Shown here: positions 33,001-48,000 of the stretch, piece by piece
Numbering within the stretch: position 1 is the first letter of the stretch
Layout of the letters: each line of letters opens with the position of its first letter
Assembly (NCBI GenBank): GCA_035221665.1
Contig: CM069155.1
Location: forward strand, 27,776,001 to 27,840,000
Length of the DNA stretch: 64,000 nucleotides
From: Okamejei kenojei
Taxonomy: Eukaryota
Direction: 5' to 3'
Made by a program: the position numbers

Positions 33001-36000
33001 ATGTTATCGTGCTCTAACGATCACCTACATTGATGTGATTGATATGAATCAATGCTGTTAGTGCTGTATATTGATGTGGTGGCTGATAATCATGTTGATG
33101 TGATCTGGTGATACCTATCAATGATTTTAATGTTGGTTGATGTGATTGCTGGGCTTTCTGTTGATCTGGTTGCGGTAGCCAATTTGTTGGAATAAAATCC
33201 ATTCAAATGGGGTTTTGGGAATTCTGCACTGTCTTTGTATCGGCTGGTCACGGTCTCTCCCTTCATTCCTCAACTGTCAAATAAACACAGACGTGCACAT
33301 GCGCTCACAACCTATTCGAACACCGCAGTTAACAGACATTTGTAGTTTGTGAATGGAACTTTCTGTGGCAGTGGAAAGATTTTGATACTCGGTGAATAAT
33401 AAGTAGACAATAAATTTGATACCATTATTAGGTCTGTGTGTTTGTTCAGAATTTTCCATTTTTCACTTGTTCTTTCACTGCATCATGTAAGGACTGATTC
33501 AATGTCTTGTACTTCTGTTAACAAAATGAAATGCCAAATAAATTCTGAAGTGGAGATGACTTTGTCATGATATCTTGCTGTCACTTCCCGTCAACATTTA
33601 TCCAACGTTCATGAAGACAACTGTTGGAATCTCCACCCGTCTCCCTGGACTGAGCCCAGTTGATGGTTCTACACACTGCTCTCATATCGAGGCATGCATT
33701 GGGTTTACTTATGCAACCGTTGGCAGTTACTAACTAGAGTGTAAGCTCTGGGTTTGCTGGTTTTAATTGAGAATAACACAATGTTACACATTGGACCTTA
33801 ACCCAGAGATTCTGCTGCAATGGACTGTAACTGAGGGGCTTTGGGTAGATGGAGGTGGGGGATTTATGTGTAGATTAACTAAAATTCATGTGAGTTATGA
33901 GTGAGACTGTACCTCATGGAACAGACTACGGAGGGACCTGTGGATCCAGCATTGAACCATGGTAGGGCTCATCGTATTGAGGGATGGATTAAAGTTGGAA
34001 TGAGTTTTTGCATATTCCTGCGAATGGGGTGCACATTGGAATCTAATGTGAGGATTTGGATGATGAGAGGCTTCTGAGGGATAAGATATATGTGCACTGA
34101 ATATCATCCAAATCCTCACTTAAGCTCACTGGTCTATAGTTTCCTGGTTTTTCCTTGCAGACCTTCATAAATGGAAGCACAGTCCACAGTCCAGTTATCC
34201 AGCCTCTAATGATTCATATATCTCAGAGAGGGTTCCTGCAATTTTTTTTCTCTACCTTCCAATAGGTTGGATAAATCTTATCAGACCCAGAAGGTTTATC
34301 TACCTTCATACGTCTTAGCACCTTCTAGCACCGCCTTGGTGGTAATATGGACTGTCCTCTAGACATCTACATTAACTCTCTCAAGTTCTCCAGTTTTCAT
34401 GTTTTCTCCACAGTAAAAGCAAAGGCGTACTCATTGAGGACCTTGCCCATCACCTGAGGCTGCACATAGTTGACCGCTTTGGTTTGTGCGAGATCCTATT
34501 CTCTCTTTAGGTACCCTCTTTTCCTTAATCTGTACATACAATCTCTTTGGATTCTCCTTAATTTTATCTGTGAGGTTGTCACCTTTTTACCTGGTTTCTT
34601 TGGTTCTAACCTAATCCTGGTGTTGCATGGTTTTGACACAGTGAGAGGAAACGGGCATAGTATTTATCATAAAAACTTTGCGCCTCAAGGGGTGCAGATG
34701 AGTGTCTCTGAGGTACATTCGGTTAAGAGGGTCTCCTTGCCTGCTAAAACCGATTCGTGGATTCATAGGCAAATTTGGACACTGGGAGTAGTAGCGGTGT
34801 GTGGGCCACGGACTCAGCGGGCCAGGTCCCCCCACAGGCGCTGCCCGGCCCGCGGAGTCTCCAGCAGCTCGGCGCCGGCGCTCCCATTGGTTACTGGGCG
34901 CAGGGTCCCGGCCGTGATTAGTTGCTGGGCGGAGAGTCCCGGCCGTGATTGGTTGCTGGGCGCAGAGTCCCGGCCGTGATTGGTTGCTGGGCGGAGAGTC
35001 CCGGCCGTGATTGGTTGCTGGGCGGAGAGTCCCGGCCGTGATTGGTTGCTGGGCGGAGAGTCCCGGCCGTGATTAGTTGCTGGGCGGAGAGTCCGGCCGT
35101 GATTGTTTGCTGGGCGAGAGTCCCGGCCTGATTGGTTGCTGGGCGGAGAATCCCGGCCGTGATTAGTTGCTGGGCGGAGAGTCCGGCCGTGATTAGTTGC
35201 TGGGCGGAGAGTCCCGGCCGTGATTGGTTGCTGGGCGGAGAGTCCCGGCCGTGATTGGTTGCTGGGCGGAGAGTCCCGGCCGTGATTAGTTGCTGGGCGG
35301 AGAGTCCCGGCCGTGATTAGTTGCTGGGCGGAGAGTCCCGGCCGTGATTGGTTGCTGGGCGGAGAGTCCCGGCCGTGATTGGTTACTGGGCGGAGATTGC
35401 TGTACTTTGCGTCCTGATTGGGCGGAGAGAGATGTTGATGCAGGAGCGAGGTTGTTGTTTACAAGTTGCAATGGATCCCGGCGGCGGCGGCTCTCGGGGG
35501 ATCGGGGACCGCGGCGCCCACTCCCGCAGCGCCCGGGCCAACGGGGACCACGGCGGCGGCGTCGCCCTCCCGGGCCTCAAGCTGGCAGCGCTGCTCCTAC
35601 ACTTGCTGTCGGTGGTTGGAGCTGCCCCGCGACCAGGTGAAAAGCCGCGAGGGCCCGTAGAGGAGGGGGGGGGGGGGGGGGGAGGTGAGGGTGAGAGTGG
35701 GAGAGAGGAGGGGGGGGGGGATAGAGAGGGAGAGTGAGGGTGGGGAGAGAGGAGAGTGAGGAGGTGTGGGGACGAGTGGGGGGGGGAGAGGGAGAGTGAG
35801 GGGGGGGAGAGGGAGAGTGAGAGGAGTGGGGGTGGGGAGTGAAGAGGAGCGTGAGGGGGGAGAGGGAGTGGAGGAGAGTGAGGGGGGGGAGAGGAGAGGA
35901 GGAGTGGGGAGGGGTGGTGAGAGGAGAGTGAGGGGGGGGAGAGGAGAGTGAGGGGTGTGGGAGAGGAGAGGATGGTGGGGGTGGGGAGAGACGAATGAGG

Positions 36001-45000: not shown

Positions 45001-48000
45001 CACAATCAACCCACTTCACTTTGACTCCACCTTCATTGCCGTTAAAGCTGCTGCTGCTGTTGGCATCTGCTGGGCAGCGTCTCTTCCTTGTATCCTAAAT
45101 TCCAAGGGACGCCGGCTTGAACAGATCTGGTCGGCAACAGTTGGGCTGGGCTGATGCATCTCCACTGGAGCTGCTGGCAGAGCAGCAATTCCGGACTGCA
45201 GTCTCTGGGAACCTCTGCCTGTCCTCTCCACATTAGGGGGGGCCCGGCGTTGCAGCGGTAGAGTTGCTGCTTTACAGAGCCAGTGACCTGGGTTAGATCC
45301 TGACGAAGGGTGCTGTCTGTACGGAGTTTGTATGTTCTCCACGTGACTGCATGGGTTTTCTCTGGGTGCTCTGGTTTCCTCCAACAGTCCAAAGACATAC
45401 AGTGTTGTAGGCTAATTGGCTTGGTATAGTTGTAAATTGTCCTTAGTGTGTAGAGGATAACATTAGTGTGCTGGGATCCATGGTCGGTGTGGACTCGCTA
45501 GGCTGAAGAGCCTGTTTCCGGGCTGGTTCTCTAAACTAAAGTAAACAAAAAATGTCTCCAGTAGCAAACGGACAGAGATCTTGGATCACTATGTCACAGC
45601 TACTGGATGAATCCACTGCCTGCCTTCCTTTGGGCTAACTCAATTCCTATGTGAATGTAATGGCTCTACCATCACTGATGATCCCTTCAGCCTCTCTAAT
45701 CCCTGGGCTCTGGAATGCCTCCCCTTATAGCCTACCACTGACCAAGCTTTGGCTCCCGTCCCTCAAGTTCGGCTCGGAGTGAAATGTTGCCTGGACAAAG
45801 CTCTGCATTAAAGGTACTCTGTAAACGGATGTGGCTGAGAAATTAATGGGACTTTGTACCATTTTATGGCAGAGGACAAGCTATAAAGAGGGAACAGGAG
45901 CAGCGAGCACACGAACAAGAGATCCAGCGAATCATGCTGCCGTTGTCGGCCTTCACCAACCCCAGCTGTGAGCTGGAGGACGAGGTGACGGTGATGATGG
46001 TGAACCTTCAGGCACTGACCGGGGAAGACAGTGAGGCGGACAGTTCTCGTGCAACCGCCACTGGCACTCCTGGGGCTTGAGTTTAGGCGCAAACCAGTGG
46101 AAAGGATCTCTGGCTGTGGAATCTGAAGAGAGAGCGAGCTTGCTTGAATCTTTATAACATGACTCCGGACACACAACTCATCCTGACAACTGCCGCACTG
46201 TGGAGTTTCCTGGAAGGATCTGGCCATATCTGGGTGCTGATAATCAATGCATGAAGAGCGTTTAGCAGTATCCAGCAGTGAATCATGTGATGGTTCTGTT
46301 TTATATTTTAAGCTGCATTTTAAACATAACCTGGGTTTGGACACGTGAATGGTAAACGGAGTGTTGCTAGTGTTTCAAACTTTAATATAGACATTTCTAG
46401 GGGTGGGGGTTGGAATTACTGTGTGAAGTATTGTGCGCCACAAGCGGAGAGGGCAACACAACCGGGTTTAAAGATGGGAGGGCAGGGCATGCAGGGTGTC
46501 TCCGTTCAGTAGGATGGTGATAGATCAACTCGTTATCCTGTCCTTCCCCTCGTTCCCCGCAGTGCCCTGCACTCTGTCGATAAACTCTAAGCGCCCTGTG
46601 GCAACTTTGATTGAAGCTCTCCTCCCTGTCCAACAGCCTAGTTCTGTCACTCTGTCCTTGTTGTAGACAGTCCAGTGGGGGAAGAGCCCGAGCTTCCACT
46701 TGGCTGAGCTCCGCAACCACTTGCTCAATTTGTGTGACTCAACATATAACCCTTGCTCTTGGGATGAACCCTCCACATCCCAGGGATCAGTTGAGTGTTT
46801 ATCAGTGTGTCCCGGCTTTCAGCACAAGAATATCACTCCTCAGGAAAGGATACTGAAACGGAACAAAATACTCCAGCTGCAGCCTCACCAAAGCCTTAGC
46901 AATTGCACGAGCAGTATTCTCTGTCCTCTTTAAGCAAATACCTCCAGTATTGGAATCGCTGATCACCTGCTGTTAACTCTCAGGGATTTGAGATCAGGGA
47001 TTTGCCTGACCCAGGCCAATTTTTTGCTTTTCTATTTTTCACATTTCCCCCCCCCCCCCCCCTCCCACATTCAGTCAGCCCCCTCCCTATCCAATCACAA
47101 CCACACTACATTCCTCCCCACTGCATTCCCACATACAGCCCCATGGAATGCCCCACTCAGCGCCCCCATAAACCAGCCTACACTTTAACAATGCTGAGGA
47201 GCTGTGGAACTAACTGAGGAAGCTGGTCTGCTGAGGTTATACTGCAGGATTGCATGTGCCAACATTGTGAACCTACCCCAGAAACACAAAGGCAGTGGAT
47301 GGGAACTGAGCTCCTCAAATCTGCTACCTCTTACCCAGAATGATGGTGGACATTTAAACAGCCAACTCATGACGGTGGCAGGGTCTGGCACTTGATATAC
47401 AAGGTGACTGTGAAATATTCACAGCCTGGAGTGGTTGAGTACCTGATCCCCCTCTTACTCCCTTCACAAGGAATTGCTATGAGCTCAGATGCAGCATCCC
47501 TTATTGGTGCAGAGTACGTGCTACAGAACCAACCATCTCTCAACTCAATCCAGGGGTTCACTACATCTCTCCATCAGGACAATGCTCTGGGCCCACCGAC
47601 CCACTCAATATTATCCCTCCCTCTCAAATTGCTGCTTCCCCAATCTGTTTCACGTCCCACTCTCTTCGTGGTGGATATTATGGTCTGATCCGACCCTCCC
47701 ACCACAGTCTAAGGGCTCTGACCTTCACATTGCACATCGTAAACCTAGACGTGTTTCAGCAGTTTATGACGTAAATAACCATGTTGTGCTTCTCAAACTT
47801 GCACCATAAGTTGTAAGTGGCTTTATAATGAACTAAAACTTCCATAACACAATAGCATGATTAACTAATCTTTAAAATGGGGACACATTTTATGAAGTTG
47901 CTGCCAATGTTGAGGAACAAAGAGAGAATGTGTGTGGGAACACTCCCGATCCGAGACCTTTGCCAGACCCACCTCTCATACCATCTAATGATTAATCACT

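What the first reader, a model, noticed from the sequence alone, without database searches (positions are those of the whole stretch)
35471..46080. Kringle-less PIK3IP1: signal-peptide exon splices in frame directly to the stalk exon
Seen: four exons (166+195+79+208 nt) give an open 215-aa type I membrane protein with the PIK3IP1 TM and LPLSAFTNP..GTPGA tail. I found no CLNW, YCRNPD or PWCY kringle motifs between 35637 and 41368. Known: canonical PIK3IP1/TrIP has two phase-1 exons encoding an extracellular kringle domain implicated in ligand-dependent control of its PI3K inhibition. Inference: clean loss of both phase 1-1 exons yields a ligand-independent PI3K regulator with a short stalk (NET sequon, juxtamembrane KRKR) and a Gly-rich extension before the signal peptide.
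Basis: partly seen in the sequence, partly recalled or inferred. Interest (0 to 1): 0.72.

Follow-up and report, generated by a model that had tools for sequence, protein, structure and literature searches.

The report
Skate PIK3IP1 gene lacking its kringle
This is a skate's copy of the PI3K-inhibitor gene PIK3IP1 with no outer kringle domain; every ray and skate examined has lost most of that domain, so this is a lineage-wide variant taken one step further, not a one-off.

Summary
The four exons are real: canonical GT/AG sites, compatible phases, open frame. They are the orthologue of PIK3IP1, closest to skate proteins (tail 65/68 identical to Leucoraja). No kringle exon exists in intron 1 or anywhere else in the window, by tblastn, Pfam, a custom profile and motif scans, each with working positive controls where one applied.

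Kringle loss is not special to this genome. All 10 ray and skate PIK3IP1 entries found (5 species, 4 orders) lack PF00051, whereas 17 of 19 non-batoid entries have it. The relatives keep a 41-residue, two-cysteine, heavily glycosylated relic of the first kringle exon and lack the second.

In this window the relic exon is missing too. That is either a recent real loss or an assembly fault beside the 1.6-kb G/A array; I could not tell which.

An in-frame ATG at 35432 matches the annotated starts of four of the five batoid species (Pristis starts at the equivalent of 35471).

"Ligand-independent regulator" is untested. Engineered kringle-deleted mouse TrIP fails to inhibit, yet the skate tail keeps every family-invariant residue.

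Verdict: real, a new variant of a known kind, moderate interest.

The parts
34886..35396 (+). Promoter-proximal 31-bp tandem array (16.6 copies) inside a CpG island, ending 36 nt before the first in-frame ATG
   Evidence: TRF. There are 11 ATTGG and 15 GGGCGG in 34886-35431, against 22 GGGCGG in the whole window, and CpG o/e is 0.84-1.06. A role as promoter is inferred from position only.
35432..35636 (+). Coding part of exon 1: N-terminal Gly/Arg-rich extension plus the hydrophobic signal-peptide core.
   Evidence: tblastn to Leucoraja P0001 residues 1-66, E=1.4e-28. 55/66 identical to Leucoraja. The donor GT is at 35637.
35637..41368 (+). Intron 1 (5732 nt). It holds no kringle exon and no copy of the 41-aa relic exon that relatives carry between these two exons.
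   Evidence: Only 469 of 5732 bases are repeated elsewhere in the window.
35660..37260 (+). G/A-rich degenerate minisatellite starting 24 nt after the exon 1 donor. This is the least trustworthy stretch of the assembly.
   Evidence: 88.6% purine, 64.6% G. TRF array 35672-36996 with periods of about 20 and 247.
41369..41563 (+). Stalk exon (phase 1-1, 195 nt): Cys-free, one NET sequon, ends in the conserved K-R-K-R-D-L-G juxtamembrane motif
   Evidence: tblastn E=2e-34. 57/64 identical to Leucoraja and 58/64 to Rhinoraja; 0 Cys and 1 sequon.
44463..44541 (+). Transmembrane exon (79 nt) with the family's G-x-G-x-x-x-G pattern
   Evidence: 24/25 identical to Leucoraja. The TM glycines are invariant or near-invariant in 21 PIK3IP1 proteins.
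45873..46080 (+). Cytoplasmic tail exon (p85-like region, LPLSAFTNP...GTPGA) with the TGA stop
   Evidence: phmmer E=8e-32, 96% identity to Leucoraja PIK3IP1. 65/68 identical. All covered family-invariant columns are kept.

Best explanation
The locus is the orthologue of PIK3IP1 (TrIP) in a rajiform skate. It encodes a type I membrane protein from four coding exons: signal peptide, stalk, transmembrane helix and cytoplasmic p85-like tail. The kringle was dismantled in two steps. Step 1 is shown by comparison: on the stem of rays and skates the second kringle exon was lost. That exon carries the FCRNPD...PWCY core and four of the six cysteines. The first kringle exon decayed into a 41-residue, two-cysteine, multiply N-glycosylated relic that no longer scores as a kringle and is not predicted to fold. 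It is a phase 1-1 cassette that relatives are predicted to skip in X2 isoforms. Step 2 is seen in this assembly, and its reality in the animal is inferred: the relic exon itself is gone, so the only product equals the skip isoform of relatives. How it works is inferred. The protein is still a membrane-tethered binder and inhibitor of PI3K p110 through its strongly conserved tail. Its ectodomain is reduced to a disordered, glycosylated stalk of about 65 residues with no cysteine. Any control that the kringle gave in other vertebrates (ligand binding, oligomerisation, activation-induced shedding) must therefore be absent or supplied otherwise, for example by expression level, stalk proteolysis or the conserved GxxxG-type transmembrane helix.
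For: Orthology: the best hits are named PIK3IP1 of skates, and every exon matches collinearly. 35 of 35 covered columns that are invariant in 12 database PIK3IP1 are identical in the window; the other two are split codons that read correctly. Kringle absent. A profile of the relic/kringle exon 1 run against 3135 six-frame ORFs of the whole window gave a best E of 0.086, outside the gene, while 5 of 5 left-out batoid relics spiked into the same set scored 7e-12 to 2.5e-24. Batoid-wide step 1: 0 of 10 batoid entries (5 species) carry PF00051, against 17 of 19 non-batoid entries. 119 of the 120 best-listed hits to a shark query carry it. My own Pfam scan at E<=10 found 0 of 4 batoid proteins with Kringle. 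Alignment A1 puts the 41-aa piece on the first kringle half (13-22 of 41 identical to shark and bony-fish kringles) and shows a 42-column gap where the second half lies. The batoid species span Torpediniformes, Myliobatiformes, Rhinopristiformes and two families of Rajiformes and form one clade, 100/99. Relic properties: 2 Cys in 5 of 5 species, and 2-4 sequons against 0-1 in kringle-bearing species. Leucoraja and Rhinoraja share 39/41 in the relic against 53/64 in the stalk. AF2 pLDDT is below 50 over residues 62-158 of Leucoraja. There is no PDB hit at E<=10. Skip isoforms: Rhinoraja X2 (P0002) and Hemitrygon X2 (P0008) join signal peptide to stalk exactly as in the window. Tail constraint: the K-x-D-L-G motif, the TM glycines, LPLSAF.NP.C and TPGA are invariant in 21 proteins, batoids included.
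Against: The relic is highly conserved between two skate families (39/41). That argues it matters and makes its loss in a close relative less expected. The 1.6-kb G/A array sits right after exon 1 and is a plausible site for an assembly fault. I had no reads, transcripts or relatives' genomic DNA to check it. No protein of 120 aa or more from this genome's own locus appeared in the database searches, so there is no independent gene model. In mouse T cells an engineered kringle-deleted TrIP did not inhibit pS6, was not down-regulated and may act as a dominant negative (PMC6279406, passages). A retained inhibitory role for a kringle-less protein is therefore not a given. The hydrophobic core lies 36-49 residues from the start, and I did not test signal-peptide cleavage.
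Confidence: 0.6

Rival explanations
1. Assembly artefact for the last step. The animal has the same 41-aa relic exon as other skates, but the assembly dropped it, for example by collapse or a false join within or next to the G/A minisatellite in intron 1. The gene would then be an ordinary batoid PIK3IP1 with X1 and X2 isoforms.
For: The G/A array (88.6% purine, about 1.6 kb) begins 24 nt after the exon 1 donor. Such tracts are known trouble spots for sequencing and assembly (recalled, not tested here). Both nearest relatives keep the relic at 39/41 identity.
Against: The window is contiguous with no N. The array is short compared with long reads. The remaining 4 kb of intron looks like ordinary unique sequence (469 of 5732 bases repeated). 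An in-frame skip isoform already exists in relatives, so a real loss would be tolerated.
Confidence: 0.3
2. The kringle-less protein is not a PI3K inhibitor. Like the engineered kringle deletion in mouse, it is inactive or acts as a decoy or dominant negative, or the tail has taken on another role.
For: In D10 T cells the kringle-deleted TrIP did not attenuate pS6 and gave higher pS6 than vector. An hCD8-TrIP chimera inhibited only when cross-linked (PMC6279406, passages).
Against: The tail and TM are under the same constraint in batoids as elsewhere: the invariant residues are kept in all 21 sequences and at 35/35 covered positions in the window. That would be odd for a protein that lost its activity on the batoid stem. 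No paralogue with a kringle was seen for it to antagonise: 0 of 10 batoid entries carry PF00051.
Confidence: 0.2
3. The relic or a kringle exon is present in intron 1 but has diverged beyond recognition, or an unrelated new exon is spliced in between exon 1 and the stalk exon.
For: Intron 1 contains many open stretches (92 ORFs of 22 aa or more), and I had no transcript data.
Against: A profile that recovers even the most divergent ray relic (Narcine, 7e-12) finds nothing in the gene. The other exons are 83-96% identical to Leucoraja, so in-place decay would still be visible. The only intron hit is a 12-aa ORF at 38241-38276 (E 1.5-4.9) with no similarity around it.
Confidence: 0.04
4. The locus is a dying or unexpressed gene copy.
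For: No gene model from this genome was found in the protein database.
Against: All four exons are open with canonical splice sites, the invariant residues are intact, and there is a CpG-island promoter. The locus sits as a single copy directly downstream of a DGCR2-like gene, and the window holds no second copy.
Confidence: 0.04

Closest known systems
PIK3IP1 / TrIP of mouse and other kringle-bearing vertebrates (sharks Heptranchias, Rhincodon, Hemiscyllium; lungfish; bichir)
   Same: Orthologous by best hits and collinear exons. Shares the signal peptide, the stalk ending in K-x-D-L-G, the single TM helix with conserved glycines, and the cytoplasmic p85-like tail with LPLSAF.NP.C and C-terminal TPGA.
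   Different: The whole kringle of about 80 residues (PF00051, E 1e-14 to 5e-18 in the controls) is absent. The ectodomain has no cysteine. There is a long Gly/Arg-rich N-terminal extension, which is also seen in batoids and Heptranchias.
Predicted X2 isoforms of batoid PIK3IP1 (Rhinoraja longicauda P0002, 222 aa; Hemitrygon akajei P0008, 217 aa)
   Same: Identical architecture: the signal-peptide exon is joined in frame to the stalk exon, then TM and tail. The window is 58/64 (stalk) and 59/67 (tail) identical to Rhinoraja.
   Different: In those species the form is one of two predicted isoforms, and the genome still has the 41-aa relic exon (X1: P0003, P0006). In the window no such exon is assembled, so this would be the only form.
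Batoid X1 PIK3IP1 with the half-kringle relic (Leucoraja P0001, Rhinoraja P0003, Pristis P0005, Hemitrygon P0006, Narcine P0004)
   Same: Closest sequences overall. They also lack the second kringle exon and a Pfam kringle call.
   Different: They carry the relic ECVPSNGTDLRAEQRITSGVNCTNLVESKKEFNLTLSQNST (Leucoraja) with 2 Cys and 2-4 sequons. The window does not.
Engineered kringle-deleted TrIP (mouse; PMC6279406 and PMC11615590, passages read)
   Same: The same domain composition as the natural skate protein: stalk, TM and p85-like tail without the kringle.
   Different: The laboratory construct failed to inhibit pS6 and was not shed. The natural protein has had a long time to adapt, and its function is untested.
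Scyliorhinus torazame PIK3IP1 model (P0013, 188 aa)
   Same: The signal peptide joins the stalk directly and there is no PF00051.
   Different: It nests among kringle-bearing galeomorph sharks, beside Cetorhinus. It is therefore an independent event, a skip isoform or an incomplete model; I could not tell which.

Membership tests
PIK3IP1 / TrIP (orthology by descent) | Best database matches are PIK3IP1, and all exons match collinearly | tested here: met
   the top hits are named PIK3IP1 of Leucoraja, Rhinoraja and Narcine, with E down to 8e-32 for one exon. There is only one such locus in the window.
PIK3IP1 / TrIP | Cytoplasmic p85-like tail with the conserved LPLSAF.NP.C core and C-terminal TPGA | tested here: met
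   all invariant tail residues are present. 65/68 identical to Leucoraja.
PIK3IP1 / TrIP | Single transmembrane helix preceded by the K-x-D-L-G juxtamembrane motif | tested here: met
   An AF2 helix spans the homologous region of P0002 (127-181) and P0001 (171-220). The window's own protein was not folded, because the exons were not joined.
PIK3IP1 / TrIP | N-terminal signal peptide | tested here: inconclusive
   A conserved hydrophobic core (LKLAALLLHLLSVVGA) aligns with that of the relatives and is helical in AF2 models of relatives. It lies 36-49 residues from the start. No signal-peptide predictor was available, and cleavage is untested.
PIK3IP1 / TrIP (as described in the literature) | Extracellular kringle domain (PF00051) | tested here: not met
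   no kringle in the exons, in intron 1 or in the window. The locus is therefore an orthologue by descent but not a kringle protein by architecture.
PIK3IP1 / TrIP | Binds p110 and inhibits PI3K | not testable with these tools
   Needs co-immunoprecipitation and pAkt/pS6 assays.
Kringle domain family (PF00051) | Module of about 80 residues with six cysteines and the CRNPD / WC[YF] core | tested here: not met
   0 of 92 intron ORFs and 0 of 4 exon translations match. Even the relatives' relic fails Pfam at E<=10 and PDB phmmer at E<=10.
Batoid-type PIK3IP1 (half-kringle relic form) | 41-aa phase 1-1 exon with two cysteines between the signal-peptide and stalk exons | tested here: not met
   absent from the assembled window. 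The profile control recovered 5 of 5 left-out relics.

The most novel reading that the evidence does not exclude
A whole vertebrate superorder (rays and skates) has run PIK3IP1 without a working kringle since its origin, and this skate has finished the job by deleting even the relic exon. The result is a natural 'tail-only' TrIP whose TM and p85-like tail stay under full constraint. That would mean the kringle, held to be essential in mouse T cells, is dispensable for the conserved core function. It would also mean that a constitutively skipped cassette exon can be lost once the skip isoform carries the function.
Probability: 0.45. Interest if true: 0.55.

Novelty: new variant of a known kind. 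Interest (0 to 1): 0.42.

Why it matters
PIK3IP1/TrIP is a brake on PI3K in T cells, and how its kringle works is unsettled: ligand binding, oligomerisation and synapse recruitment have all been proposed (PMC6279406, PMC11615590, passages read). Natural proteins that lost the kringle but kept the tail under strict constraint are a ready-made comparison set. Three grades are available: the full kringle in sharks, the glycosylated two-cysteine relic in most batoids, and nothing in this skate. Testing them could show which functions need the kringle. The locus also shows how a domain can disappear stepwise: exon loss, decay of the partner exon into an alternatively skipped cassette, then loss of the cassette. 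My five searches of the held paper library found no description of this for cartilaginous fish. The predicted proteins themselves are already in public databases.

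Tried and rejected
- Homodimer prediction of the TM plus tail of Rhinoraja X2 (P0002 residues 115-222, two copies) gave 'no answer' (score 0.02, mark 0.32). It is neither evidence for nor against binding.
- Weak minus-strand tblastn hits to the relic at 29134-29075 (E 0.43) and 25268-25113 (E 0.7-9.7) lie inside the upstream DGCR2-like gene region. They have no Pfam match and score E 0.88-3 with the profile. I rejected them as chance.
- The 12-aa ORF at 38241-38276 ('CTNL...') has nothing similar around it in any frame. 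Rejected.
- An apparent extension of shark alignments upstream of the stalk acceptor (41332-41368) is an open-frame read-through into the intron with little identity. Rejected.
I re-sent stop-free ORFs to the same tool.
Which species share the clusters of P0001 and P0013 therefore stays unknown.
- The PDB profile search of the family found only kringle proteins. The 60 best of 91 matches that were listed include no solved PIK3IP1 and no p85 chain, so the 'p85-like' label of the tail rests on the literature.
- Rfam found 0 matches at gathering threshold in the window and 0 at E<=0.1 in 34000-47000.
- The two 31-bp arrays (424-2425 and 34886-35396) are not related: 16/31 matching, reached by 847 of 2000 shuffles.
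- Not done:
  - Joining the window's exons. As a result there was no exact-sequence look-up, fold or search of the window's whole protein; Rhinoraja X2 served as stand-in.
  - Any comparison with genomic DNA of other skates or sharks, reads or transcripts.
  - A chimaera orthologue: none was among the hits listed.
  - Paper supplements were not consulted.
- Unnamed database proteins (source 'lgn', such as P0025 and P0037) were not fetched or used.
- The window is not human. Its best matches are skates.

Full report
**What is there**

The window has no N and is not human; its best protein matches are skates.

| Exon | Coordinates | Length | Junction features |
|---|---|---|---|
| 1 | 35471-35636 | 166 nt | donor cag\|GTGAAA |
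| 2 (stalk) | 41369-41563 | 195 nt | AG acceptor; donor tag\|GTACAG |
| 3 (TM) | 44463-44541 | 79 nt | AG acceptor; donor acg\|GTAAGG |
| 4 (tail) | 45873-46080 | 208 nt | AG acceptor; ends in TGA |

The phases are 1, 1 and 2, and the three split codons read Gly, Gly and Arg. No whole-protein look-up or fold of the window's own product was therefore made, and the lengths I give are arithmetic.

The product may therefore be 228 aa rather than 215 aa. I cannot decide between them.

**Identity**

The tail exon alone finds PIK3IP1 of Leucoraja (E 8e-32, 96%), Rhinoraja and Narcine. tblastn of those proteins onto the window matches all four exons in order, with E = 3e-39, 2e-34, 2e-10 and 4e-4, and finds no second locus.

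Per-exon identity:

| Region | vs Leucoraja | vs Rhinoraja |
|---|---|---|
| Exon 1 | 55/66 | 50/63 |
| Stalk | 57/64 | 58/64 |
| TM | 24/25 | 23/25 |
| Tail | 65/68 | 59/67 |

The source is therefore a rajiform skate. Of 37 alignment columns invariant in 12 database PIK3IP1 proteins, the window's exon translations cover 35 and match all 35. The other two are the split codons.

**No kringle in this assembly**

Five independent checks agree.
- Pfam on the four exon translations gave nothing.
- tblastn of the ectodomains of 12 orthologues against 35000-41800 at E<=200 hit only exon 1 and the stalk exon.
- Pfam on all 92 plus-strand stop-to-stop ORFs of 22 aa or more in intron 1 gave 0 Kringle matches. 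The three control proteins (Heptranchias, Rhincodon, Protopterus) scored 1e-14 to 5e-18.
- Six kringle motif patterns have 0 matches in any of the six frames of the intron.
- A profile built from the first kringle half was run against all 3135 six-frame ORFs of 12 aa or more in the window. The best hit was E 0.086, at 56051-56221, outside the gene. Left-out batoid segments spiked into the same set were recovered 5 of 5 times at 7e-12 to 2.5e-24.

**What the relatives show**

This changes the story. In the search with Leucoraja PIK3IP1, 29 proteins passed E<=0.001. The 10 batoid entries (5 species) have no PF00051, while 17 of the 19 others do. A search with whale-shark PIK3IP1 found 428 proteins at E<=1e-10; of the 120 listed, 119 carry PF00051. 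My own Pfam scan of four batoid proteins at E<=10 found no kringle.

The alignment explains why. The X1 proteins of Leucoraja, Rhinoraja, Pristis and Hemitrygon, and the Narcine X3 protein, carry a 41-residue segment between the signal peptide and the stalk. This segment aligns with the first half of the shark and bony-fish kringle, with 13-22 of 41 residues identical. The second half is simply missing. In Heptranchias that half is 42 residues with the FCRNPD and PWCY cores and four cysteines.

The relic has these properties:
- It keeps its two cysteines in 5 of 5 species.
- It has gained N-glycosylation sequons: 2-4, against 0-1 in kringle-bearing species.
- It is better conserved between two skate families (39/41) than the stalk is (53/64).
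- It no longer scores as a kringle.
- AlphaFold2 gives it no confident fold: pLDDT is below 50 across residues 62-158 of Leucoraja, from a shallow 21-sequence alignment.

The five species span four batoid orders and form one clade with a long stem in a 17-protein ML tree (100/99). That tree left out the X2 isoforms, the Mustelus model, two Narcine odd isoforms, most teleosts and all unnamed entries. The simplest reading is one loss of the second kringle exon on the batoid stem.

Rhinoraja X2 (222 aa) and Hemitrygon X2 (217 aa) differ from X1 only by skipping the 41-residue segment. The junction residue changes from E or G to G as expected for a phase 1-1 cassette. These are predicted isoforms, and I cannot see the evidence behind them.

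A catshark model (Scyliorhinus torazame, 188 aa) also joins signal peptide to stalk. It sits among kringle-bearing sharks in the tree, so it is an isoform, an incomplete model or an independent loss.

**What is particular to this window**

The relic exon itself is absent. The other exons are 83-96% identical to Leucoraja, so an exon decaying in place would still be obvious. It has therefore either been deleted or is missing from the assembly.

- In favour of a real deletion: the contig is continuous, most of the 5.7-kb intron is ordinary unique sequence (469 of 5732 bases repeated elsewhere in the window), and a functional skip isoform pre-exists in relatives.
- In favour of an artefact: a 1.6-kb array that is 88.6% purine starts 24 nt after the exon 1 donor, and the relic is under clear constraint in the nearest relatives.

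I have no reads, transcripts or relatives' genomic DNA. I put the real-loss reading at about 0.6.

**Mechanism**

What is shown is anatomy. The ectodomain (about 65 residues, by counting from the predicted cleavage point) has no cysteine and one NET sequon. The homologous region in Rhinoraja X2 is modelled as disordered (pLDDT below 50 for residues 60-113). It is followed by a long TM-plus-juxtamembrane helix (127-181) and the conserved tail.

Across 21 PIK3IP1 proteins the following are invariant or nearly so, batoids included:
- the K-x-D-L-G motif;
- the TM glycines, which form a G-x-G-x-x-x-G pattern;
- K-R-G, LPLSAF.NP.C and TPGA.

I therefore infer that the tail's job is retained. According to the literature that job is binding p110 and damping PI3K. 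The passages I read in PMC6279406 say both the kringle and the p85-like domain are needed in mouse D10 T cells, that a kringle-deleted construct is neither inhibitory nor shed, and that an hCD8 chimera inhibits only when cross-linked. PMC11615590 places ADAM cleavage in the stalk.

Without the kringle the mouse protein does not work. Batoids must therefore either cluster the protein another way (the TM glycine motif and, in X1 forms, the two now-unpaired cysteines are candidates; both are my inference) or use it differently. A homodimer prediction for the TM plus tail gave no answer and counts for nothing either way.

**Novelty**

The predicted batoid proteins are public, so the sequence fact is 'in the databases'. 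Five full-text searches found no paper linking PIK3IP1 to cartilaginous fish in a relevant way: PIK3IP1 with skate, with kringle and shark, with a six-term set including batoid and exon loss, with elasmobranch and with cartilaginous. The one co-occurrence, PMC8110480, only lists pik3ip1 among altered flatfish genes (passages). One search's listing was dominated by unrelated papers and is weak evidence. Supplements were not seen.

I rate this a new variant of a known kind: a real orthologue missing the family's signature domain. The lineage-wide part is well supported and the window-specific part is open.

**Surroundings**

- Upstream on the same strand lies a gene with an LDL-receptor class A exon (7870-8100), C-type lectin exons (18033-18263, 20887-21300), a Cys-rich exon (23997-24335, no Pfam call), a TM-like exon (25393-25665) and an ORF ending in TVV at 31816. 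This matches the DGCR2 domain order and TVV tail given in a figure legend of PMC10362570. I did not confirm the name by a homology search.
- The PIK3IP1 promoter region is a CpG island made largely of a 31-bp unit repeated 16.6 times, each unit with an ATTGG or ATTAG and a GGGCGG.
- Downstream are reverse-transcriptase fragments.
- No Rfam family matches.

Noticed in passing
window 34886-35396: A 31-bp unit repeated 16.6 times (94% matches) directly upstream of the PIK3IP1 start, inside a CpG island. The stretch 34886-35431 holds 11 ATTGG (inverted CCAAT) and 15 of the window's 22 GGGCGG. It looks like a tandem array of CCAAT-box plus GC-box modules serving as promoter.
   Followed up: partly
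window 424-2425: A second array with a 31-bp period (about 58 copies, 82% matches; unit rich in CCCCGCCCC) at 73% GC, open in several frames as Pro-rich pseudo-ORFs of up to 766 aa. Its unit is not related to the promoter repeat: 16/31 matching, reached by 847 of 2000 shuffles.
   Followed up: partly
window 7870-31827, + strand: Upstream neighbour with exons for an LDL-receptor class A domain (E 1e-12), a C-type lectin domain, a Cys-rich VWC-like stretch, a TM segment and a C-terminus ending in TVV. This is the domain order given for DGCR2 in PMC10362570. The name was not confirmed by homology search.
   Followed up: partly
window 35660-37260: A 1.6-kb purine-strand minisatellite (88.6% purine, 64.6% G; periods of about 20 and 247) beginning 24 nt after the exon 1 donor. 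It may form non-B DNA and is a likely weak point of the assembly.
   Followed up: partly
The peptide they add (MLMQERGCCLQVA) is conserved at the protein level in the annotated N-termini of Leucoraja, Rhinoraja, Hemitrygon and Narcine but not of Pristis, which suggests either real coding sequence or a conserved 5' element.
   Followed up: partly
window 40496-40692, 42022-42169, 43373-43518, 45329-45535, 49036-49108, 58666-58770: Copies (70-74% identical) of a short interspersed repeat scattered through the PIK3IP1 introns and downstream. Their translations share a '...HPEKTHA.TGRT.KLH...' pseudo-peptide.
   Followed up: no
window 49963-50589, + strand: Reverse-transcriptase fragments (RVT_1, E 8e-11 and 4e-4) with an internal duplication. 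This is a decayed retroelement downstream of PIK3IP1.
   Followed up: no
proteins P0013 (Scyliorhinus torazame) and P0014 (Mustelus asterias): Two carcharhiniform shark PIK3IP1 models also lack a kringle, while six other shark species have it. The catshark model joins signal peptide to stalk just like the window. These may be skip isoforms, incomplete models or independent losses.
   Followed up: partly
protein P0007 (Pristis pectinata X2): A third splice pattern: the relic is shortened by 14 residues at its 3' end, which implies an internal alternative donor in the relic exon.
   Followed up: no
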